Shown: piece after piece, positions 1 to 41,501 of the stretch
How the letters are laid out: every line of letters starts with the position of its first letter
How positions within the stretch are numbered: position 1 is the first letter of the stretch
Origin: Promethearchaeota archaeon
Lineage (GTDB): Archaea; Asgardarchaeota; Lokiarchaeia; Sigyniarchaeales; SOKP01
Assembly (NCBI GenBank): GCA_019057865.1
Contig: JAHLWP010000006.1
Span: forward strand, 1-64,000
DNA length: 64,000 nt
Reading direction: 5' to 3'
Program-made: the position numbers and the translations under genes
Notes under the pieces: model-generated
Told to the model about the DNA's origin: nothing
Databases searched by the model: none
Seen by the model: only the letters and a program-made list of their open reading frames with translations

Positions 1-50
1 GGTTAATAAATTATAAGAAGAAATTAAATCAAAGAGAAAATGCATTATAC

Positions 51-1928
51 ATGAGCCATAAAAAGAAAAATAAAGAAAGGGCTCTGCCTTTATGTAGTTC
101 AGACATGGATAAAATAGTTGCCCATGGAGCTGTTAATAATCAAAATAATTATTCGGAGGATAAAATCCAAGAATTAAAACAAAGTAAAAATCTTATGAAA
201 AATTACACGGGTAGAAAGATTATATTTGATAATGAATATTTTGGAAAATTTAAAAAAAATGTAGCTATCATTACTGACCATCTATTTGTTGAAGATAAGA
301 ATAAGAAAAAAATATATAGAAAATCTTTAGAATTATTTAATTTTGTAGTAAAAAATGGGTTGGATCCTTCAGATTTAGAAGTTAAAAGTGCTGGAGTCTT
401 ATCAATTGGCTTTTTTTATTTTTCTTTGCTTTTTTATGATTATAAAAAGATAAAAAATGATGTTCTTACATATAGTACAATATGTCGTTCTTTAGGTAAG
501 GATTTACAAAAAATTGGTATTTCAAACTGCAAATCCAGAAATTTAGGAATAGTCTCAAAATTTTTACCAGAAAATTTAAGAAAGAAATATAAAGAATTTT
601 ATTCTAAAAGACTTTATACTGGAAGATTATCCTTTGAAGAATTTATTAATTTTATCAAAGATTTAGGATTAAAAAAGACAGGAATCGAAGGAAAAGTACT
701 GAACCCAGACTTTAATTACAATCAACTAACCATAAATGGTTACCAAGGATTAACATCGGAAGAATATTATAATTTAATCGAAAATAAAAAAGGGACGGAA
801 GTTCGATTTCCGGTATGGTGTGGTAAACATGATCATGCCCCATGGAAAGGCATCCTTTCCAACTTATTACAAGAAAAATGGTGTCGTAAATGTGCGGACG
901 AAAAAAAGATTACTTTCTCACTTGAGAGACTAAAAAAAATTGCACTGAAACGCGGACGTGAAGATACTGGTGTAGAAGGTAAAATATTAAATTTTCAAAA
1001 TAGTGATATAGAACTCACTCAAAAGACATATGATAGATTGACTGCAGAAAGAACGCCAAGCAAAACCCACTTCTGGTGGAGTTGTTGTATTAAAGGACAT
1101 TCCTCATGGAGAACTACACCAGGTCATATATTTTTTGACAAAACATGGTGTCCTATTTGTAAAAAAGGTCTATATACACATACAGAATTAATTAAATTGG
1201 CGAAAATACGAGGTCATGAAGAAACTGGAGTAGAAGGCAAAATATTAGACTTGAAAAATTGTGATAAAGAACTCACTTTAGAGACATATAATAGATTAAC
1301 AGTAAATAAAAAGGCAAGTGAAGTCTCATTTTGGTGGAGCTGTGAAAGAAATCACTCTCATTTCAGGAATAATCCTGCAAATATTAGAAGAGGTCAATGG
1401 TGTCCAATCTGTTCAAGTGCTGAAGGAAAATTTGAAAAAATAATTAGAGCTCAATTTGAAAAAGTCTTTAAAGTATTATTTCCAGAAAGATATCTACGAA
1501 ATTTAAAACTTAAATATACGAAAATGGACATTGGCTTGGATTTAACTAAAGAAAAAGATAAGATTATGTTTATGGGATATAAAGTTAATTTTAGCAATCT
1601 TCCTCAGTTTAAAATCTATAGTGGAAAAATGAGATTTGATGGGTATGCGGAAATTGTGATCAGTGGGAAATTAATTAAAATTGCCTTTGAATATAACGGT
1701 ATTCAACACTATGAATTTCCAAATTATTGGTTTGGAAACTCTATTAGGGGTTATAGATCGTGGTTAAAATATATTGAAAGAGATCAGGTTAAGAAAGAAA
1801 TTTGTAAATTGAATGATATATATCTTATAGAAATTCCGTATTATATCGATTTTACATTAGAGCACCCAGAAAAAATTCAATCTTATATCATAAATCAATT
1901 TGAATTAATTACTGGGTTAAAGTTATAA
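51..1928 (+). CDS. Putative free-standing endonuclease: three tandem Zn-ribbon repeats plus C-terminal PD-(D/E)xK (Vsr/DUF559-like) nuclease domain
   Basis: Three 86-96 aa repeats (TGxEGK.L...WxC..xH..W/F...WCxxC; TG codons at 678, 966, 1224). C-terminus has RFDGY...IAFEYNGIQHY...RDQVKKEICKLNDIYLIEIPY. Confidence 0.75.
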   Translation: MSHKKKNKERALPLCSSDMDKIVAHGAVNNQNNYSEDKIQELKQSKNLMKNYTGRKIIFDNEYFGKFKKNVAIITDHLFVEDKNKKKIYRKSLELFNFVVKNGLDPSDLEVKSAGVLSIGFFYFSLLFYDYKKIKNDVLTYSTICRSLGKDLQKIGISNCKSRNLGIVSKFLPENLRKKYKEFYSKRLYTGRLSFEEFINFIKDLGLKKTGIEGKVLNPDFNYNQLTINGYQGLTSEEYYNLIENKKGTEVRFPVWCGKHDHAPWKGILSNLLQEKWCRKCADEKKITFSLERLKKIALKRGREDTGVEGKILNFQNSDIELTQKTYDRLTAERTPSKTHFWWSCCIKGHSSWRTTPGHIFFDKTWCPICKKGLYTHTELIKLAKIRGHEETGVEGKILDLKNCDKELTLETYNRLTVNKKASEVSFWWSCERNHSHFRNNPANIRRGQWCPICSSAEGKFEKIIRAQFEKVFKVLFPERYLRNLKLKYTKMDIGLDLTKEKDKIMFMGYKVNFSNLPQFKIYSGKMRFDGYAEIVISGKLIKIAFEYNGIQHYEFPNYWFGNSIRGYRSWLKYIERDQVKKEICKLNDIYLIEIPYYIDFTLEHPEKIQSYIINQFELITGLKL

Positions 1929-2154
1929 ATTAATTAACCACTCGATCACAGAGATGTGAAGATATCTTCAATCCAATACGAATAAAATTCCATATTAATT
2001 AGGTATCTTATAGATTAAACGTAGCATCCTGAATTTGCATTGTTGTATAATAAAAATATAGCCCAAAAGCTTTCTTTTTTTTATTTAATAAATTAAATTC
2101 ATAAATTTAATAAAATCATGAAAATTTTATAATGTAAAAAAAAAGGTATATCTT

Positions 2155-3256
2155 ATGGCTTATAGCATTAAAGATGATGTTAATGAAATAATCAATCGTC
2201 TCGAAAAAGGAGATATCTCATTTAAAGAAAAAACAATCTTAGTTACTGGAGGGGCGGGATTTTTGGGCTCATGGGTGTGTGATGTTCTTGTTAAACAGGA
2301 TGCATATTGCATCTGTTTAGACAATTTATCATCAGGACAACCTGAAAACATATTGCACCTTATGGAAAAAGACAAATTTCGTTTTATTAACCACGATATT
2401 TCTTATCCAATATATTTTGGAATGAGTTATCATCCATTGGGCATTTGCATAGGGGATATTAAAAAAATAGATATCGTTATGCATATGGCAAGTCGAGCAT
2501 CTCCATTTGAATTTACAAAAGAACCAATATCAATATTAAGAAGCAATACTCTGGGAACTTTGAATACTTTAGGAATTGCGAAATTCCATAATGCCATGTT
2601 TTTTTATACAAGTACCTCTGAAGTCTATGGAAATCCACCAAAAGAAGCTGTTCCTACACCAGAAAGTTACTTTGGGCACGTAAATCTTGCTTAAGGTTTC
2701 CTACAAGAACGTATACCCAGTAGGTCCCAGAAGTTGCTATGATGAGTCTAAAAGAGCTGGAGAAGCATTTATTAAAGCTTATGAACTTCAACATCAAATG
2801 AGAACAAAAATCGTGAGAATTTTTAATACAGCAGGACCTAGAATACGATATGGACCTGAATTTGGAAGAGTTGTTCCCAACTTCATACACCAAGCCATAC
2901 ATGATGAAGATATTATTGTTTTTGGAGATGGGTCACAAACTAGATCTTTTATCTATGTAGTCGATGAGATTGAAGGGATACTTAAAATGGTACATAAAGA
3001 TGAAGCCATTGGAAATGTTATAAATTTAGGTAATAATAAGGAATATACAATTCTAGAATTAGCTAATATCATAAAAGATTTAACGAATTCTAACTCAAAA
3101 ATTATATTTAATCCATTACCTATTGATGATCCAGTCCGAAGGTGTCCTGATATACAAAAAGCAAAGGAAATTCTCAATTGGGAACCAACAACATCTTTAA
3201 GGGACGGTTTGAAAAAAACTATTGCTTGGTTTAAAGATAATGAGCGTAAAAGTTAA
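2155..3256 (+). CDS. UDP-glucuronate decarboxylase-like NAD-dependent epimerase/dehydratase (extended SDR), spliced: exons 2155-2683 + 2715-3256, 356 aa
   Basis: LVTGGAGFLGS, HMASRASP and STSEVYG lie in the first ORF; GPRSCYDESKR, RIFNTAGPR and GDGSQTRSF lie in the second. Removing 31 nt gives YFGHVNPVGPRSCYDESKR. Confidence 0.9.
2684..2714 (+). other. Putative BHB-type mRNA intron (31 nt)
   Basis: Central helix ACGT(2678-81)/ACGT(2709-12), bulges AAA and ATA, inner stem TCTTG/CAAGA, outer TGGG/CCCA with one unpaired C. Canonical cut positions restore the frame. Confidence 0.85.
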
Positions 3257-3764
3257 GAGTAATGAAAAAACAAATCTAAAGAACAGTAATAAACAGTTTG
3301 AGATTATCTTAAAAATCTGTTTAATTATCGGTATTATTATAATTTCAGGTTTTATATTCTATTACATTTCTACTCCTGAGCCCGGATATGTTACTTTTGG
3401 AATTTTAAATGAGAATCAAAAGGCTGAAGATTATCCTACCGAAGCGGCTGTTAATGAGAGTGTTTTTTTTTATGTCACTGTTGAAAATCATATGAAACGA
3501 GATTTTTCATTTCACTTAGAGATTTTTAAAGGTGATAATGAAACGATTTTAAATTCAACAGGATTATTTGGCGCTAAATCATATTTCAATACAACTACAG
3601 TACATTTAAACCATAAGGATTTTTGGATGTCTAATATTTTAAATGTTTCATTTTTACAACCTGGTGCAAATCAAAGAATTATAGTAATATTATGGGAAAT
3701 TCCTTATAGTGGAATAAGAAGATACGTTTCTTCGCTATACTTATGGTTAGAAATTTTGCCATGA
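3240..3764 (+). CDS. DUF1616-like membrane-anchored protein
   Basis: N-terminal TM helix, then FGILNENQKAEDYP...FYVTVENH...LYLWLEI. ATG 3240 preferred over TTG 3222. Confidence 0.7.
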   Translation: MSVKVKSNEKTNLKNSNKQFEIILKICLIIGIIIISGFIFYYISTPEPGYVTFGILNENQKAEDYPTEAAVNESVFFYVTVENHMKRDFSFHLEIFKGDNETILNSTGLFGAKSYFNTTTVHLNHKDFWMSNILNVSFLQPGANQRIIVILWEIPYSGIRRYVSSLYLWLEILP

Positions 3765-3804
3765 AAAATTAAAATTTATAAAAAAAAGAAAGGGTTAATT
3801 AATT

Positions 3805-4305
3805 TTATTCATAAGAGAGAATACCCATGTTAACATATACTTGTCCATCATTCCACCATTCTTGATTAAAAAATGTTACTTTTTCAACAGTTTTGCCATC
3901 AGTTAAATCATATATCTTTAATACATATACTGGTCCAGTATCATATAATTTAAAAGTACTAGATCCACCTTCATAATATGATACCGTGATTTTCGTATAA
4001 CCTCCGCCATTAAAATAAATTTGTAATAAAAGCCAAGGATCAAGGTCATCTGGATTATTATCCGCAAAAGTAATATAAAAATTAAGCACATAAATAAATA
4101 AAAATAATTCAGTTCCCTTGATTTTATATGCATCATATTGTACATCGGGATAGTAGAAACTCTCAAGGTCTCCAGCTAAATGTATTCCTTTTACTTTCAC
4201 AACTGAAGTCGGGTAAAGATTAAATACACCAAGAGCATTAACAGTAGATAAAAGGAGCATTCCACTCAAAAATGTAACAATACCTAAAAAATATTTTTTC
4301 TTAAT
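3805..4305 (-). CDS. Secreted hypothetical protein (probable ATT start)
   Basis: The frame extends upstream of the TTG at 4269 to ATT 4305, giving the signal peptide (M)KKKYFLGIVTFLSGMLLLSTVNA. AAGGTAG lies upstream. Confidence 0.6.
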   Translation of the reverse strand: MKKKYFLGIVTFLSGMLLLSTVNALGVFNLYPTSVVKVKGIHLAGDLESFYYPDVQYDAYKIKGTELFLFIYVLNFYITFADNNPDDLDPWLLLQIYFNGGGYTKITVSYYEGGSSTFKLYDTGPVYVLKIYDLTDGKTVEKVTFFNQEWWNDGQVYVNMGILSYE

Positions 4306-4556
4306 ATTAAACTACCTTTTTTTATTAACTCTTTTTCTTAAAAAATGAATTACTATTGAACTTTTATAAAGATTTTTTTTTGTAAGATTTTTGAAAAAAA
4401 AAAAGAAGTCAACTTCATATTTAAACTTTTTTGTCCAAAAGTAACATTAAAATCTAATCAAAAAAGATGATATTTTGAAAGGTTTTTTGATCAATTATTT
4501 ATTAATCCCTCATTATTCCAAAATGTTAAATTTTAGCCATTCTGAAGTTTTTTTCT

Positions 4557-4871
4557 GTTAATGAAACTATTACATTTTATTTAACTGTCGATAATTATTT
4601 AAATAAAGAATTTACATTTCGGATTAAAATAAAGAAAGGAGATTATAATACTGTACTCAGTTCAATTGGCTCAAATGGTACTCTTGACTCTATAATTGGC
4701 AATTTTACTTTAAAAAATAACGAGAATTGGATTTCTGAAAAATTAAATGTTTCTTTCTCAGAAGTAGGGGCAAATCAAATAATTATTACTGAATTATGGC
4801 AGATCACTAACGATGATGAAGAAAAATTTTATAATATCTTGTGGCTCAGATTGAATATTACACTAATTTAA
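4557..4871 (+). pseudogene. Orphan 3' half of a DUF1616 paralog (no ATG/GTG/TTG start)
   Basis: VNETITFYLTVDNYLNKEFTFRIKIKKGD...LNVSFSEVGANQIIITELW...LWLRLNI aligns with the C-terminal half of 3240-3764. Confidence 0.8.
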
Positions 4872-11820: not shown

Positions 11821-12891
11821 ATGGGGAAACCAATATATAAAAAAAAAAAAACTATTCTTAAAGAAAGATTTAGATTTCTTTTTGTAGAAGTTATTTGGTA
11901 TTTTATAATTATTTACGTATTAGTCTTTCTTTCTTTAGCTTCATTAGAGTTCTTTGCGGATAAAAATTCCGTTTCTTATGGGATCATATTTTATATTGAA
12001 CGAGCTATATTGATATTTATAGCAGTACCGATTGCTTTTTTCATTTCTAAGTTTCTATCACAACCTCATAAAAGAGAGATTATTATTGAAGAGGATATTT
12101 CTCCATTCAAAGGATTTTTTATGCTTTATAAAGTAACTAAAAAGAATTATAAATATCAATTTTTGTATGGATTTTTAATATATTTCCTGGTATTTTTACC
12201 CTTGGACTTTTTTACTTACCTTTTGTTACCTGATATGATTAGCTATCAAGCTTTTTCTTTAGGTTCTAACGCGTCAAACTCTTATTTATTTAGAGACTAT
12301 TTTACATTTTTAATATCTGTTATTATAATTCAATTATGTGTTTCTTTTTCAGAAGAAACAATTTTTAGAGGTTTTATTACTAAATCGGGGAGTGAACATA
12401 TAAATAGAATATCTGTTGTTATAATAGCTTCTCTTTCTTGGGGATTAGGTCATTTTGCTTATTATTTTGATCCTATAAGTGGAGCTTATCCATTTTGGTT
12501 TCCCTTCATTTGGTTTACACAAGCATTCATAATTGGAATAATTTTGTCACTTCTAGTTTTGAGAAGGAAATGGATATTTCCAGTAATTCTCGCGCATGCT
12601 TTAAATAATATAATTTCAGCACATACTTTGTGGAATTCTTTAAAGGGAAATGATTTTACTAATATTGCTTTATTTCTTTATTGTCCGTTGCTAATTATAG
12701 GTATTGTATTATTTATATGGCAATTTCCAAGAATCAAAGAAGGTTTATCAATAGGATTCAAATTATTAAAAACTTATTTTAAAAGTGAAAGGGAATATGT
12801 TGATTCCATTGGTGATAAGTTATTTATGATCTTCATAGATTTGTTGATAGGTATAATTGTTTTTCTGGTGGGCTTTATGATTTTAATATAA
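11821..12891 (+). CDS. CPBP (Abi/CAAX) intramembrane metalloprotease
   Basis: EETIFRG, WGLGH, HALNN; multiple TM segments. Confidence 0.85.
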   Translation: MGKPIYKKKKTILKERFRFLFVEVIWYFIIIYVLVFLSLASLEFFADKNSVSYGIIFYIERAILIFIAVPIAFFISKFLSQPHKREIIIEEDISPFKGFFMLYKVTKKNYKYQFLYGFLIYFLVFLPLDFFTYLLLPDMISYQAFSLGSNASNSYLFRDYFTFLISVIIIQLCVSFSEETIFRGFITKSGSEHINRISVVIIASLSWGLGHFAYYFDPISGAYPFWFPFIWFTQAFIIGIILSLLVLRRKWIFPVILAHALNNIISAHTLWNSLKGNDFTNIALFLYCPLLIIGIVLFIWQFPRIKEGLSIGFKLLKTYFKSEREYVDSIGDKLFMIFIDLLIGIIVFLVGFMILI

Positions 12892-12906
12892 AGGAGTGAT
12901 ATTTCT

Positions 12907-14225: not shown

Positions 14226-14874
14226 AATTTAAAAACTTTTTCAGAAATTTGGTCCTCATAACCCCAATAAAAATGGTCTGCTCCTGAAATAATTTCATAT
14301 TGCTTAGGTTTAATGTAATACTTATAATGGTCAAAAAAGTTATCAAATGAGGCAACATTATCTCTGTCTCCTTGAAGAAAAAATTTAGGTTTTTCTGATT
14401 GGGAGAGTTCCTTGTAATTAATTCCCATTGAATCCCAAGGAAAAGAAATAGCTATATAACCTATTACTTTATCTGAATGATTAACAGCAGAACAACCTAT
14501 TGCAGCTCCATAAGAATAACCACAAATAATGATTTTTTTTAAATATTTCTCATTTACTAAAAAATTGATACAAGCTTGGACATCACTTAATTCTCCTCTT
14601 CCATTAGAATGAGTACCAGTTGATCTTCCAACAGCTCGGAAATTAAACCTGATACACGAAATATCATTTTTGATGAAAATATTAAAAATTGCAGATACAA
14701 CATTATTATACATATTCCCCCCAAATATTCCCTTTTTAAGTTTTAAATCCTTAAAAATTGAGGATGTGGGTGGACTAATAAAACAGAATAAGACTCATCA
14801 GAAGTTGATTGGTAGTATTCAGCTTCAAGTTTTACATCCTTATTAGTAATAAAAAATTTTTCAGTTTTAACCAT
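14207..14874 (-). CDS. Alpha/beta hydrolase (COG2945-like), spliced: exons 14874-14759 + 14726-14207, 211 aa
   Basis: Exon 1 reads MVKTEKFF...LLVHPHP; exon 2 reads FGGNMYNNVV, RFNFRAVGRSTG, GYSYG, GDRD, GADHF. Removing 32 nt gives HPHPQFGGNMYNNVV. Confidence 0.9.
14727..14758 (-). other. Putative BHB-type mRNA intron (32 nt)
   Basis: Central helix TCCT/GGGA, bulges CAA and ATA, inner stem TTTTTAAG/CTTAAAAA, outer CCACCCACA/TTTGGGGGG (7 of 9 paired). Canonical cut positions restore the frame. Confidence 0.88.
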
Positions 14875-28359: not shown

Positions 28360-29016
28360 TTAAATATAGATTTGTTGATCAATTTGAAAATTAATATATA
28401 AAATTTTATTTTCTACTCCTTCAATTTTTAAAAGATTTCCACATTTAATATTTTTCAACTTCTCAAATAGTTCTACAACATCAGAATTATCTTTTGATAT
28501 AGTATAAGTTGGCATAATAAATAATAACTCACTTAGATTACCTAAAGTCTCATTACTGAAGATCATAAAATCACATTCTTCTCTAGAATATTGATCACTA
28601 TCCAATATTAAATAACAGTTTCCCGTTAAAATTGATTTTAAAAAAGCGTAAAAATCGTTGTTATCCTTAAAACTTCTAACAAAAATTCCAGGGGTTGATT
28701 TTATCCATGCTTTATATATAAGACTTTTATATTGGTTAGCCATGTCAATTGCCTTTTTTAGAAGTAATGCTTGAGATCTTTCATCTGGTCCTAAATATTT
28801 TAATTTTTCTCCTTTAAATTGTATTAACAAATGTTCATTTTGAAAATATAAATAGAGATTATTGTATTTCCTAATTGAATAAGATAAACAAAATGTTTCT
28901 CTAATACATGAACAGAGTTTATATATTTCTAAAGGTGTCTTTCCTTTATCAATTTCGCTTTTTGAGTAAGTAGTTATATTTTTGACAAATAATAGGAAAT
29001 TAACCAATTTTATCAA
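28360..29016 (-). CDS. TrmY-like SPOUT methyltransferase (divergent)
   Basis: FCLSYSIRK, LGPDERSQALLLKKA, STPGIFV; next to srp54. Confidence 0.6.
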   Translation of the reverse strand: MIKLVNFLLFVKNITTYSKSEIDKGKTPLEIYKLCSCIRETFCLSYSIRKYNNLYLYFQNEHLLIQFKGEKLKYLGPDERSQALLLKKAIDMANQYKSLIYKAWIKSTPGIFVRSFKDNNDFYAFLKSILTGNCYLILDSDQYSREECDFMIFSNETLGNLSELLFIMPTYTISKDNSDVVELFEKLKNIKCGNLLKIEGVENKILYINFQIDQQIYI

Positions 29017-40489: not shown

Positions 40490-40940
40490 AAAATTAAAAA
40501 AAGAATTCACTTCATTTTTTATAAAATCTTTAATTCTATTCGGTCTGTTCATTTTCGGGCAGATCCAATATGGAAATTCAAAAAAGATAATTCCATTATG
40601 GTAGAGAAGATAGATTTTAAGAAGATCATTAATTATACCATTTAAAAACGAATCTAGTTCATTAATATTTTTATGAAAATAATTCGGAAAAATATAATGC
40701 TGAATTCCATTATATTCGAATGTTATCCATATGAAATTTTCGCTATGATAATTAAAGGGGGTATTAATTTCACGCTCAAGAAGAAAAATTTTATTATTTT
40801 TAATGGTAATTTTAATATAACCAATAGGGAACTGAATTTTTATTAGTTTTGAATCAATTTTCGTATAATCATCTTTAATTTTATCAACAATCTTCTGAAT
40901 TTGGAAAGCATCGAAAAGTTAAAATATGATGGATATCATT
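40490..40940 (-). pseudogene. Frameshifted relic of a PD-(D/E)xK nuclease homologous to the C-terminus of 51-1928
   Basis: WITFEYNGIQHYIFPNYF...DLLKIYL...IIFFEFPYWI (FEYNGIQHY at 40720-40694); FDAF motif upstream in another frame. Boundaries are approximate. Confidence 0.8.
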
Positions 40941-41144: not shown

Positions 41145-41501
41145 ATGATAGGTTTTGTTATATCTCTTATTCTCGCCATATCTTCCTTGTTGTTGGGAAT
41201 ACCTTTGATATTCAGAAAAGTTAAACCTAATCATTTTTATGGTTTTCGTGTGTCAAAATTCATTTTTAAAAGTGATGATATATGGTATGAAGTAAATGCT
41301 AAAGGAGGGATGCATTTAATCATTATTGGAGGTGTTTTAATAGTTATAGCTTCATTAGCATTAGTATATATTAATGATAATATCTTGCAAGGCATTTTTT
41401 TATTCATCACTTTACTTATCGAGGCATTGGGACTTATTTTATCTTTAATCATAACATATAATCTAGCACATAGACTAGCAAAGGAAAAAGGATTAAAATA
41501 A
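41145..41501 (+). CDS. SdpI/YhfL-family membrane protein
   Basis: KVKPNHFYGFR...SDDIWYEVN..GG; 3 TM segments. Confidence 0.8.
   Translation: MIGFVISLILAISSLLLGIPLIFRKVKPNHFYGFRVSKFIFKSDDIWYEVNAKGGMHLIIIGGVLIVIASLALVYINDNILQGIFLFITLLIEALGLILSLIITYNLAHRLAKEKGLK

What the first reader, a model, noticed from the sequence alone, without database searches (positions are those of the whole stretch)
2684..2714. 31-nt BHB intron splitting a UDP-glucuronate decarboxylase mRNA
The gene looks frameshifted with a premature TAA (2692-94). The local sequence reads TGGG-C-ACGT-AA^A-TCTTG-(14 nt)-CAAGA-ACGT-AT^A-CCCA: a perfect 4-bp central helix, two 3-nt bulges and a 5-bp intron stem. The outer helix has one extra C (relaxed BHB/BHL). 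Cutting after the second base of each bulge, the known EndA rule, gives GTA AAC CCA = V-N-P. This restores YFGHVNPVGPRSCYDESKR just before the catalytic YxxxK. A pipeline would likely call this a pseudogene.
Basis: partly seen in the sequence, partly recalled or inferred. Interest (0 to 1): 0.92.

Follow-up and report, generated by a model that had tools for sequence, protein, structure and literature searches.

The report
tRNA-type mini-intron in Asgard sugar gene
A 31-base insert that seems to break a sugar-nucleotide enzyme gene of an Asgard archaeon has the shape and exact borders of a tRNA-type intron, is kept in related species whose gene is otherwise intact, and always sits next to a DNA-cutting enzyme gene, so it is most likely cut out of the messenger RNA and spread as a mobile element.

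Summary
Window 2684-2714 is an exact 31-nt insert in a UDP-glucuronate decarboxylase (UXS) gene: 47 of 52 orthologs of the genus lack exactly these bases, and 5 genomes plus 11 metagenome contigs carry them. Removing the insert gives an intact 353-356 aa frame in 5 of 5 genomes. Both exons are under strong purifying selection (dN/dS 0.03-0.11, dS 0.2-3.2), while the insert differs at only 2-5 of 31 bases. Its borders fall on a relaxed bulge-helix-bulge motif: the 5' site is canonical, the 3' bulge faces one extra C, and the fourth central pair is not conserved. The chance of such a motif at given borders is about 1.6e-4. The genome (Promethearchaeota) has alpha and beta EndA subunits, the alpha with the specificity-broadening loop, and RtcB. 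I conclude that it is an mRNA intron of the cbf5 kind (about 0.85), but no RNA data were available. New here: a free-standing Vsr-like nuclease gene (51-1928) lies upstream only in intron-bearing loci, and the window's gene is a mosaic with a donor-type tract around the intron. This suggests homing-like spread (about 0.45-0.5). The scan noted similar inserts before on other DNA of this genome. My searches found papers confirming coding-sequence splicing only for cbf5.

The parts
2155..2683 (+). Exon 1 of the UXS-like extended SDR gene (Rossmann half, GGAGFLG NAD motif)
   Evidence: ORF list; Pfam Epimerase 1-124; orthologs
2684..2714 (+). 31-nt BHB-type intron (2685-2715 would give the same product)
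   Evidence: Absent from 47 of 52 orthologs. Present in 5 genomes and 11 metagenome contigs. Removal restores a 356-aa frame.
2715..3256 (+). Exon 2 (begins with the third bulge base; catalytic YxxxK just downstream; stop at 3254-3256)
   Evidence: best PDB relative is human UXS1, E 4e-45
2682..2684 (+). 5' three-base bulge; predicted cut after 2683
   Evidence: Sequence; MFE folds
2713..2715 (+). 3' three-base bulge, faced by unpaired C2677 (a 1x3 loop, so relaxed); predicted cut after 2714
   Evidence: Sequence; folds
2678..2681 (+). Central helix, exon strand (pairs with 2709-2712)
   Evidence: pairs 2679:2711 and 2680:2710 are invariant, 2681:2709 is U-A or U.G; 2678:2712 is paired in 8 of 16 alleles.
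2709..2712 (+). Central helix, intron strand
2685..2689 (+). Intron stem, 5' strand (TCTTG)
   Evidence: Invariant in 16 of 16 alleles, although the metagenome pattern left it free
2704..2708 (+). Intron stem, 3' strand (CAAGA)
   Evidence: Invariant in 16 of 16 alleles
2667..2676 (+). Outer exon-exon helix, 5' strand (2667-2671 and 2674-2676, with UU 2672-2673 bulged)
   Evidence: Folds; pair counts
2716..2723 (+). Outer exon-exon helix, 3' strand
   Evidence: Folds; pair counts
2670..2737 (+). Donor-type tract around the intron. It has 9 differences from the nearest intronless relative (G012) in 37 exon bases, against 3 in about 121 flanking bases. From 2670 to 2727 it is identical to the G047/G004 alleles.
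3..1928 (+). Free-standing nuclease gene: zinc-finger repeats plus a C-terminal Vsr-like PD-(D/E)xK domain. The frame is open to the contig start, so the N-terminus may be missing. First ATG at 51.
   Evidence: PHROG hits; model pLDDT 83.4; Vsr Z 10.5 and I-Bth0305I Z 9.3; found only at intron-bearing loci
3213..4311 (.). Donor-type (G041-like) downstream genes that belong to the incoming segment
   Evidence: G041 aligns colinearly with window 213-4097 at 84.7%
4530..4868 (+). Orphan 3' fragment of the resident (G012-like) downstream gene, marking the far edge of the replaced segment
   Evidence: 84.6% to the G012 protein, against 40% to the window's own full copy

Best explanation
Window 2684-2714 is a tRNA-type (bulge-helix-bulge) intron inside the coding sequence of a UDP-glucuronate decarboxylase gene of an Asgard (Promethearchaeota) archaeon. 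In the transcript, the two exon ends pair with each other and with the intron's 3' end. This presents a canonical 3-base bulge at the 5' site and a relaxed 1x3 loop at the 3' site, four helix positions apart (three conserved pairs; the fourth pairs in 8 of 16 alleles). The heteromeric (alpha-beta) splicing endonuclease EndA cuts after the second base of each bulge. RtcB then joins the exons, which restores the frame and the invariant V-N-P in front of the catalytic YxxxK. These steps are inferred from sequence; none was shown on RNA. A second, less certain layer concerns the DNA. The intron travels with a free-standing Vsr-like nuclease gene directly upstream (3-1928). The pair entered this genome by recombination with an intron-bearing allele, in the manner of homing. 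The intron may protect its allele by interrupting the nuclease's target (my estimate about 0.45-0.5).
For: (1) Exact insert: 47 of 52 genus orthologs lack precisely these 31 nt. (2) Not a lesion: removal gives intact 353-356 aa frames in 5 of 5 genomes. dN/dS is 0.026-0.109 in all 20 exon comparisons with dS 0.22-3.2, while the intron differs from the window's at only 2, 2, 4 and 5 of 31 bases. (3) Not an artefact: the insert is in 5 assemblies and 11 metagenome contigs from several projects. (4) Structure: the BHB is the MFE fold of the 53-nt context in 5 of 5 alleles, and of the 67-nt context in 4 of 4 other alleles (z -4.4 and -3.4 for G004 and G047, but -1.9 and -0.6 for G048 and G041). 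It is the centroid for the window. The intron stem is invariant in 16 of 16 although the search pattern left it free. Chance of a motif at given borders is about 1.6e-4. (5) Exon codon choice: 9-11 of 11 exon-exon pairs form in intron-bearing genome alleles, against a mean of 6.3 (range 5-9) in 47 intronless ones. Position 2679 is C in 16 of 16 intron-bearing alleles and T in 45 of 47 intronless ones. (6) Machinery: there are two EndA paralogs. The alpha resembles A. pernix EndA alpha (3p1z_B, E 3e-35) and has K and R aligned to K44 and R46 of the specificity loop (PMC3241643 passages). The beta has Ser at the catalytic His. RtcB scores 561 bits. Asgard EndA is reported as (alpha-beta)2 with this loop (PMC5829648 passages). 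(7) Mobility: close relatives of the nuclease gene (71-77% identity) occur in only 4 of 54 genus genomes, always beside the intron-bearing UXS, plus a remnant in G048. They occur on 9 of 11 metagenome contigs, with a DNA remnant on a tenth. In 45 of 47 intronless loci a GTPase gene ends 133-185 nt upstream, leaving no room. In the gene tree the window sits with two intronless species (100) while the other 4 intron alleles form a clade (100). The window gene is mosaic, with a donor-type tract at 2670-2737.
Against: No RNA evidence of any kind was available. There is no compensatory double substitution in any helix (0 pairs), so the structure rests on conservation rather than covariation. The motif is relaxed: an extra C2677 is present, and the fourth central pair is broken in 8 of 16 alleles. 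The window's own 67-nt MFE is a different fold (-13.8 against -9.2 kcal/mol), and fold z-scores for the window are weak (-0.9, -1.6). The motif alone is as common as in shuffled sequence. A BHB-plus-ORF-merging scan of the window gave 4 hits against about 2 expected. The intron alleles represent only two independent lineages (one clade plus the window), so the nuclease link and the exon codon pattern could be linkage or co-conversion. Allele L070 carries the intron with an intronless-type 3' exon (8 of 11 pairs). No full-length protein above 88.5% identity to the spliced product is in the protein collection.
Confidence: 0.85

Rival explanations
1. Split enzyme without splicing. The two halves are made as separate polypeptides: the first ends at TAA 2692-2694, and the second starts at TTG 2687 inside the hairpin. 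They then assemble into an active SDR.
For: Both halves are under purifying selection, which this model also predicts. An in-frame TTG at 2687 is present in all 16 alleles.
Against: The TTG is part of the invariant stem, so its conservation needs no coding explanation. I saw no ribosome-binding motif (by eye). The break lies inside the conserved motif next to the catalytic Tyr. The intron-derived residues differ non-conservatively between alleles (read). The model does not explain why the insert's borders coincide with BHB cut sites (p about 1.6e-4), nor the helix-forming exon codons.
Confidence: 0.06
2. Inactivated gene. The insert is a frameshifting lesion and the locus is a pseudogene shared by descent.
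For: Annotation pipelines would call it frameshifted. The genomes hold other SDR paralogs.
Against: There is no second lesion in 5 of 5 genomes. dN/dS is 0.03-0.11 at near-saturated dS in both exons. The insert itself is far more conserved than synonymous sites.
Confidence: 0.04
3. Translational bypass. The ribosome takes off at GUA 2680-2682 and lands on GUA 2711-2713, 31 nt downstream, as in phage T4 gene 60 (recalled). This would restore the frame and give V-Y-P.
For: The window has matching take-off and landing codons, a stop soon after take-off and a hairpin.
Against: The landing codon is GCA in 7 and GAA in 1 of 16 alleles. The product would replace an Asn that is invariant in 47 of 47 intronless orthologs.
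Confidence: 0.02
4. On the mobility layer only: the nuclease gene and the intron are merely linked. The nuclease targets its own insertion site in the GTPase-UXS spacer ('intronless homing'). The intron 756 nt away is then a passenger marker, or the pairing reflects common descent.
For: There are only two independent lineages. G041 is colinear with window 213-4097, so one large exchange could have brought both. Remnant nucleases persist beside intact introns in G004, G048 and L072.
Against: Between the nuclease gene and the intron, the window gene is again recipient-like (93% to G012 at spliced 421-540). A short donor tract is centred on the intron, as expected if a break or selection acts at the intron site. 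None of the 47 intronless genomes has the close nuclease ortholog.
Confidence: 0.35

Closest known systems
BHB intron in the cbf5 pre-mRNA of Crenarchaeota (Watanabe 2002; Yokobori 2009, PMC2738675, passages read)
   Same: It is a short intron (16-44 bp there, 31 here) inside a coding sequence. It is cut at BHB-type sites, occurs in lineages with heteromeric EndA, is present or absent among relatives, and was easily mistaken for a frameshift.
   Different: The gene is different (UXS, not cbf5), the lineage is different (Asgard) and the 3' site is relaxed. Here the distribution needs a lateral gain, and a free-standing nuclease gene is linked. The cbf5 paper notes that its intron is too short to encode a nuclease and reports none. 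cbf5 splicing was shown on RNA; this one was not.
BHB intron in the 5' UTR of Haloferax volcanii HVO_1309 mRNA (PMC7714728, passages read)
   Same: It is an mRNA substrate of the tRNA splicing endonuclease.
   Different: It lies in the UTR, not in the reading frame, and it was confirmed in vivo and in vitro.
Introns of Asgard tRNA genes (bioRxiv 10.64898/2026.10.13.758758, abstract and one passage read)
   Same: Same hosts, same predicted enzyme, repeated recent gains, and insertion at BHB-forming sites.
   Different: That work covers tRNA genes only. A term search of its text found 'mRNA', 'cbf5' and 'homing' 0 times, and its tests found no general route of arrival.
Free-standing homing endonucleases that mobilise a neighbouring intron: T4 mobE with the I-TevIII intron (PMC2790892, abstract in the listing only). 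'Collaborative homing' of a group I intron and a separate endonuclease gene (Bonocora & Shub and Zeng et al. 2009) is recalled, not read.
   Same: A nuclease gene outside the intron is polymorphic at a fixed site next to the interrupted gene, with a conversion-like tract around the intron.
   Different: The intron here is a 31-nt protein-spliced BHB intron, not a self-splicing group I intron. The host is an archaeon, not a phage. Cleavage was not tested.
Vsr-like homing endonuclease I-Bth0305I (PDB 3r3p) and Vsr (PDB 1cw0)
   Same: The C-terminal 170 aa of the upstream ORF model onto these folds: Z 9.3 (98 of 98 residues) and Z 10.5 (118 aligned).
   Different: Sequence identity is 11-15%. No Pfam or NCBIfam family matches. 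Three zinc-finger modules precede the domain. Activity is unknown.

Membership tests
Archaeal BHB intron (EndA substrate) | A 3-nt bulge at the 5' splice site flanked by helices, with the cut after the second bulge base | tested here: met
   AAA 2682-2684 lies between the central helix and the 5-bp intron stem. The cleavage rule itself is recalled.
Archaeal BHB intron (EndA substrate) | Strict hBHBh': two 3-nt bulges exactly 4 bp apart with nothing opposite them | tested here: not met
   C2677 faces the 3' bulge (a 1x3 loop). The fourth central pair is broken in 8 of 16 alleles. The motif is therefore relaxed.
Archaeal BHB intron (EndA substrate) | The predicted cuts give a product colinear with intronless homologs | tested here: met
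   Removal restores V-N-P and a 356-aa frame. 47 of 52 orthologs lack exactly these 31 nt.
Archaeal BHB intron (EndA substrate) | The host encodes an EndA able to cut relaxed motifs, plus an RtcB ligase | tested here: met
   Two EndA paralogs. The alpha has K and R aligned to A. pernix K44 and R46 (PMC3241643). The beta lacks the catalytic His. RtcB is present. PMC5829648 reports this type for Asgard.
Archaeal BHB intron (EndA substrate) | The structure is supported by compensatory changes | tested here: inconclusive
   No pair shows changes on both sides. 94.3% of cells are paired, against 36-56% when partners are slid. The stems are invariant in 16 alleles.
Archaeal BHB intron (EndA substrate) | A spliced RNA and an excised (circular) intron are observed | not testable with these tools
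   No transcript data were available. The protein collection holds no product above 88.5% identity.
UDP-glucuronate decarboxylase (UXS, extended SDR) | Closest to characterised UXS, with the NAD motif and YxxxK present | tested here: met
   Human UXS1 at E 4e-45, against 4e-29 for the next family. Sources name the relatives UXS. GGAGFLG and YDESK were read.
Free-standing homing endonuclease (Vsr-like / PD-(D/E)xK) | Nuclease fold with conserved acidic, His and Lys positions | tested here: met
   Model pLDDT 83.4. Vsr Z 10.5, I-Bth0305I Z 9.3, DUF559-like 3hrl Z 8.5. D75, E92, H98, D123 and K126 are 90% or more conserved in 61 sequences. Mapping onto catalytic residues was not done.
Free-standing homing endonuclease (Vsr-like / PD-(D/E)xK) | Presence/absence polymorphism at a fixed genomic site, with decayed copies | tested here: met
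   Full-length copies in G041 and G047, and a long copy in G000 that runs off the contig start. Remnants in G004, G048 and L072. Absent from 45 of 45 determinable intronless loci.
Free-standing homing endonuclease (Vsr-like / PD-(D/E)xK) | Cuts the allele that lacks it, and repair copies it in | not testable with these tools
   There is only indirect evidence: the mosaic gene and the donor tract.
Programmed translational bypass (gene 60 type) | Matched take-off and landing codons | tested here: not met
   The landing codon differs from GUA in 8 of 16 alleles.

The most novel reading that the evidence does not exclude
The 31-nt BHB intron and the neighbouring Vsr-like nuclease gene form a two-part mobile element. 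The nuclease would cut intronless UXS alleles at the conserved site. Repair from an intron-bearing donor would copy in the intron with its helix-forming exon flanks. The intron, harmless because EndA and RtcB remove it from the mRNA, would make the allele immune. This would be a DNA-level route by which protein-spliced introns invade protein-coding genes in the archaeal lineage closest to eukaryotes.
Probability: 0.45. Interest if true: 0.9.

Novelty: new variant of a known kind. Interest (0 to 1): 0.8.

Why it matters
Papers I could search confirm splicing of an archaeal coding sequence only for cbf5 in Crenarchaeota. Four full-text searches found no report of BHB introns in Asgard protein genes. 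A well-supported case in an ordinary metabolic gene of an Asgard archaeon has three consequences. First, 'frameshifted pseudogenes' in these genomes need re-reading. Second, the tRNA-splicing machinery serves mRNAs in the closest archaeal relatives of eukaryotes. Third, through the linked nuclease gene, the question of how such introns arrive becomes testable; the recent Asgard tRNA-intron preprint calls it unanswered.

Tried and rejected
Covariation: the 5 genome alleles and 16 alleles in all show no compensatory double change, so there is no covariation proof.

Spliced product in databases: a search of longer proteins with the 5' half found 1444 relatives. The best was 87% identical to that half. 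Among the 120 proteins listed, the best match to the whole spliced product was 88.5%. So there is no cDNA-derived or annotated spliced product. Clusters at 90% identity could hide closer members.

Nuclease family: Pfam gave only a sub-threshold DUF4379 hit. NCBIfam gave nothing. Pfam matched none of 10 relatives. Foldseek against PDB found nothing at E <= 0.001. Only VIA-align gave clear matches.

Viral contigs: there was no relative of the nuclease and no copy of the intron pattern.

Paralogs of the nuclease on contig C41: no split neighbouring gene was seen. This was not pursued in other genomes.

The intron sequence has no other copy in the genome (blastn-short).

Motif scans: the BHB motif alone is not enriched. 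BHB plus ORF-merging gave 4 hits in the window against about 2 expected, and it missed the 14727-14758 insert noted by others. One hit, at 41214-41253, looked like chance. I did not run a genome-wide scan because its expected false-positive load was too high.

ARAGORN on the genome was used only as context.

Artefact, pseudogene, bypass and split-protein readings were considered and rejected as set out under the rivals. Supplementary files of the papers were not opened; those of PMC2738675 (intron lengths and structures) and PMC5829648 (EndA tree) may bear on the comparison.
Full report
OBSERVATION. A 179-aa ORF (2155-2694) ends at TAA 2692-2694, and a 189-aa ORF in another frame runs to 3256. 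The two translate to the N- and C-terminal halves of one extended SDR: Pfam Epimerase positions 1-124 and 135-240. The C-terminal half is closest to human UDP-glucuronate decarboxylase among solved structures (E 4e-45; the next family is at 4e-29). Sources name the relatives UXS, from 'Promethearchaeota archaeon'. Several of those records have contig lengths equal to contigs of the genus fetched here. The 4.26-Mb genome is therefore an Asgard archaeon. The window has 28.7% G+C.

THE INSERT IS EXACT AND RECURRENT. Of 54 genomes of the genus, 53 have an ortholog at E <= 1e-60. I aligned 52 of them: the window plus 51 loci. G005's copy is cut by a contig end and was left out, as was a 53%-identical paralog in G007. 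Of these, 47 lack exactly 31 nt at this point and 5 carry them: G000, G004, G041, G047 and G048. One metagenome scan used a pattern that fixed the exon ends and part of the loop but left the stems free. It found 11 more contigs from several projects, all with the insert at the same place. Removing 2684-2714 gives an uninterrupted 353-356 aa frame in 5 of 5 genomes, reading ...YFGHVNPVGPRSCY.... The Asn is AAT or AAC in 47 of 47 intronless orthologs. Removing 2685-2715 gives the same protein, so homology fixes the borders only to within 1 nt.

NOT A LESION. Across the 10 pairs of intron-bearing genes, dN/dS is 0.026-0.109 in each exon, with dS 0.22-3.2. The insert differs from the window's at only 2, 2, 4 and 5 of 31 positions. 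It is far better conserved than synonymous sites. This fits either selection or recent lateral spread, but not decay.

STRUCTURE. The parts are as follows.
- The 5' site is a true 3-nt bulge (2682-2684), lying between a central helix (2678-2681 with 2709-2712) and a 5-bp intron stem (2685-2689 with 2704-2708).
- The 3' bulge (2713-2715) faces the unpaired C2677.
- The exons pair through GGG:CCC and, beyond a UU bulge, 5 more pairs in the window and 8 in G004 and G047.

In the 53-nt context this is the MFE fold in 5 of 5 alleles. In the 67-nt context it is the MFE fold in the 4 other alleles (z -4.4 and -3.4 for G004 and G047, -1.9 and -0.6 for G048 and G041). For the window the 67-nt MFE is a different fold, and the BHB is the centroid. 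The intron stem is invariant in 16 of 16 alleles. Pair 2681:2709 is U-A or U.G. Pair 2678:2712 is A-U in 8, A.C in 7 and A.A in 1, so the fourth central pair is not maintained. No pair shows a compensatory double change.

A relaxed BHB as I defined it fits 7.8e-5 of all (end, length) combinations and is as frequent in shuffled sequence. The motif alone therefore means little. Its coincidence with independently defined borders has p of about 1.6e-4. Intron-bearing genome alleles form 9-11 of the 11 exon-exon pairs (8-11 on the metagenome contigs). The 47 intronless alleles form a mean of 6.3 (range 5-9). Position 2679, which pairs with intron G2711, is C in 16 of 16 intron-bearing alleles and T in 45 of 47 intronless ones. 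These alleles are not independent (see below), so this may reflect selection, co-conversion or both.

MACHINERY. The genome has two EndA paralogs, each with both Pfam domains. They are 29% identical. One matches the A. pernix catalytic subunit (3p1z_B, E 3e-35), with Lys and Arg aligned to K44 and R46 of the Crenarchaea-specific loop and with the catalytic His kept. The other has Ser at that His. PMC3241643 (passages) shows that this loop and K44 confer cleavage of non-canonical and relaxed introns. PMC5829648 (passages) reports (alpha-beta)2 EndA with this loop for Asgard. RtcB is present at 561 bits. ARAGORN finds only 18 tRNA genes, 12 with introns, in a genome that is 99.7% complete. That fits the heavy interruption of Asgard tRNA genes described in a 2026 preprint (abstract read).

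HISTORY AND THE NUCLEASE GENE. In a DNA tree of the 52 spliced genes (quick IQ-TREE, SH-aLRT), four intron alleles form a clade (support 100). The window groups with the intronless G012 and G056 (support 100). Two changes are needed.

The window gene is a mosaic. Its 3' half is 95-99% identical to G012. Its first 120 nt resemble G048 and G041 (79-86%, against 60-67% to G012). Around the intron there is a tract (2670-2737) with 9 differences from G012 in 37 exon bases, against 3 in about 121 flanking bases. From 2670 to 2727 it is identical to G047 and G004.

Directly upstream lies a 625-aa ORF whose frame is open to the contig start. It hits PHROG families named HNH endonuclease (8.5e-16) and homing endonuclease (1.7e-5). 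The C-terminal 170 aa model with pLDDT 83.4. By VIA-align they match a FASTKD4 RAP module (Z 10.8), Vsr (Z 10.5, rmsd 3.1, 118 aligned), the homing endonuclease I-Bth0305I (Z 9.3, 98 of 98) and a DUF559-like protein (Z 8.5). Foldseek found nothing significant.

Close orthologs of this ORF (71-77% identity) occur in 4 of 54 genus genomes, each time next to the intron-bearing UXS. G048 keeps a remnant. The ORF also lies upstream on 9 of 11 metagenome contigs. A tenth has a DNA-level remnant, and one shows nothing within 412 nt. In 45 of 47 intronless loci a small-GTPase gene ends 133-185 nt before UXS, which leaves no room; 2 could not be judged. In G047 and L067 the order is GTPase, nuclease, UXS. 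G041 aligns colinearly with window 213-4097 at 84.7%. An orphan fragment of the resident downstream gene at 4530-4868 marks the far edge of the exchange.

The simplest reading is that a G012-like genome acquired the nuclease gene, the intron with its flanks and two downstream genes from a G041-like donor by patchy recombination. Whether the nuclease cuts at the intron site (collaborative homing) or only near its own insertion site (hitch-hiking) cannot be decided here.

RIVALS. An assembly artefact is excluded by 16 independent records. A pseudogene is excluded by the selection data. Translational bypass from GUA to GUA fails because the landing codon differs in 8 of 16 alleles and the invariant Asn would be lost. 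A two-polypeptide enzyme starting at TTG 2687 cannot be excluded by sequence, but it does not explain the border coincidence or the helix-forming codons.

WHAT IS KNOWN. Passages of PMC2738675 and PMC7714728 describe cbf5 as the one confirmed BHB intron in an archaeal coding sequence. The latter adds a 5'-UTR intron in Haloferax. Four full-text searches found nothing on BHB introns in Asgard protein genes. The Asgard tRNA-intron preprint does not contain the words mRNA, cbf5 or homing. Earlier notes of this scan describe similar inserts in other genes of this genome and propose the nuclease pairing for this window. I tested the pairing for this locus myself and did not test the other loci.

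VERDICT. The intron reading is supported at about 0.85 and awaits RNA evidence. The mobile two-part element is a plausible extension at about 0.45-0.5.

Noticed in passing
window 40511-40744 (-): A decayed fragment related to the C-terminal nuclease domain of the 51-1928 ORF: 42% identity over 79 aa, with the FEYNG.QHY motif kept.
   Followed up: partly
window 4530-4868 (+): An orphan C-terminal fragment of the gene downstream of UXS. It is 84.6% identical to the G012 protein, while the full copy at 3213-3761 is G041-like (91% over its C-terminal part).
   Followed up: partly
L070 (metagenome contig SDBV01190559.1), intron at 1030-1060 on the reverse strand: An allele with the intron and the upstream nuclease gene but an intronless-type 3' exon flank. 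Only 8 of 11 exon-exon pairs form. It looks like a recombinant with a junction just after the intron.
   Followed up: no
L058 (G041:C4), open frame 242-4642 of the reverse complement: In G041 the nuclease homolog is the C-terminal 585 aa of a 1467-aa open frame. In G047 the frame is 806 aa. The window copy, cut by the contig start, is probably longer than 625 aa.
   Followed up: no
whole genome G000: ARAGORN with intron search finds only 18 tRNA genes (12 with introns, two with implausible 876- and 1582-nt 'introns') in a 99.7%-complete genome. Most tRNA genes probably escape detection because of multiple or non-canonical introns.
   Followed up: no
G000:C41:92793-95510 (-) and C41:126478-127827 (+) (L073, L074): Two distant paralogs (28-30% identity; 905 and 449 aa) of the zinc-finger plus Vsr-like nuclease lie next to UbiA and HD-domain genes. 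No split neighbouring gene was seen.
   Followed up: partly
G000:C75:110910-112217 (outside the window): The RtcB match lies in a 518-aa open frame, while the Pfam model has 426 positions. The reason for the extra length was not examined.
   Followed up: no
window 12857-12904 (+), 28398-28434 (-), 41214-41253 (+): These are other relaxed-BHB plus ORF-merging hits of my scan, about the number expected by chance. The third lies in overlapping low-quality ORFs. The same scan missed the insert at 14727-14758 that others noted.
   Followed up: partly
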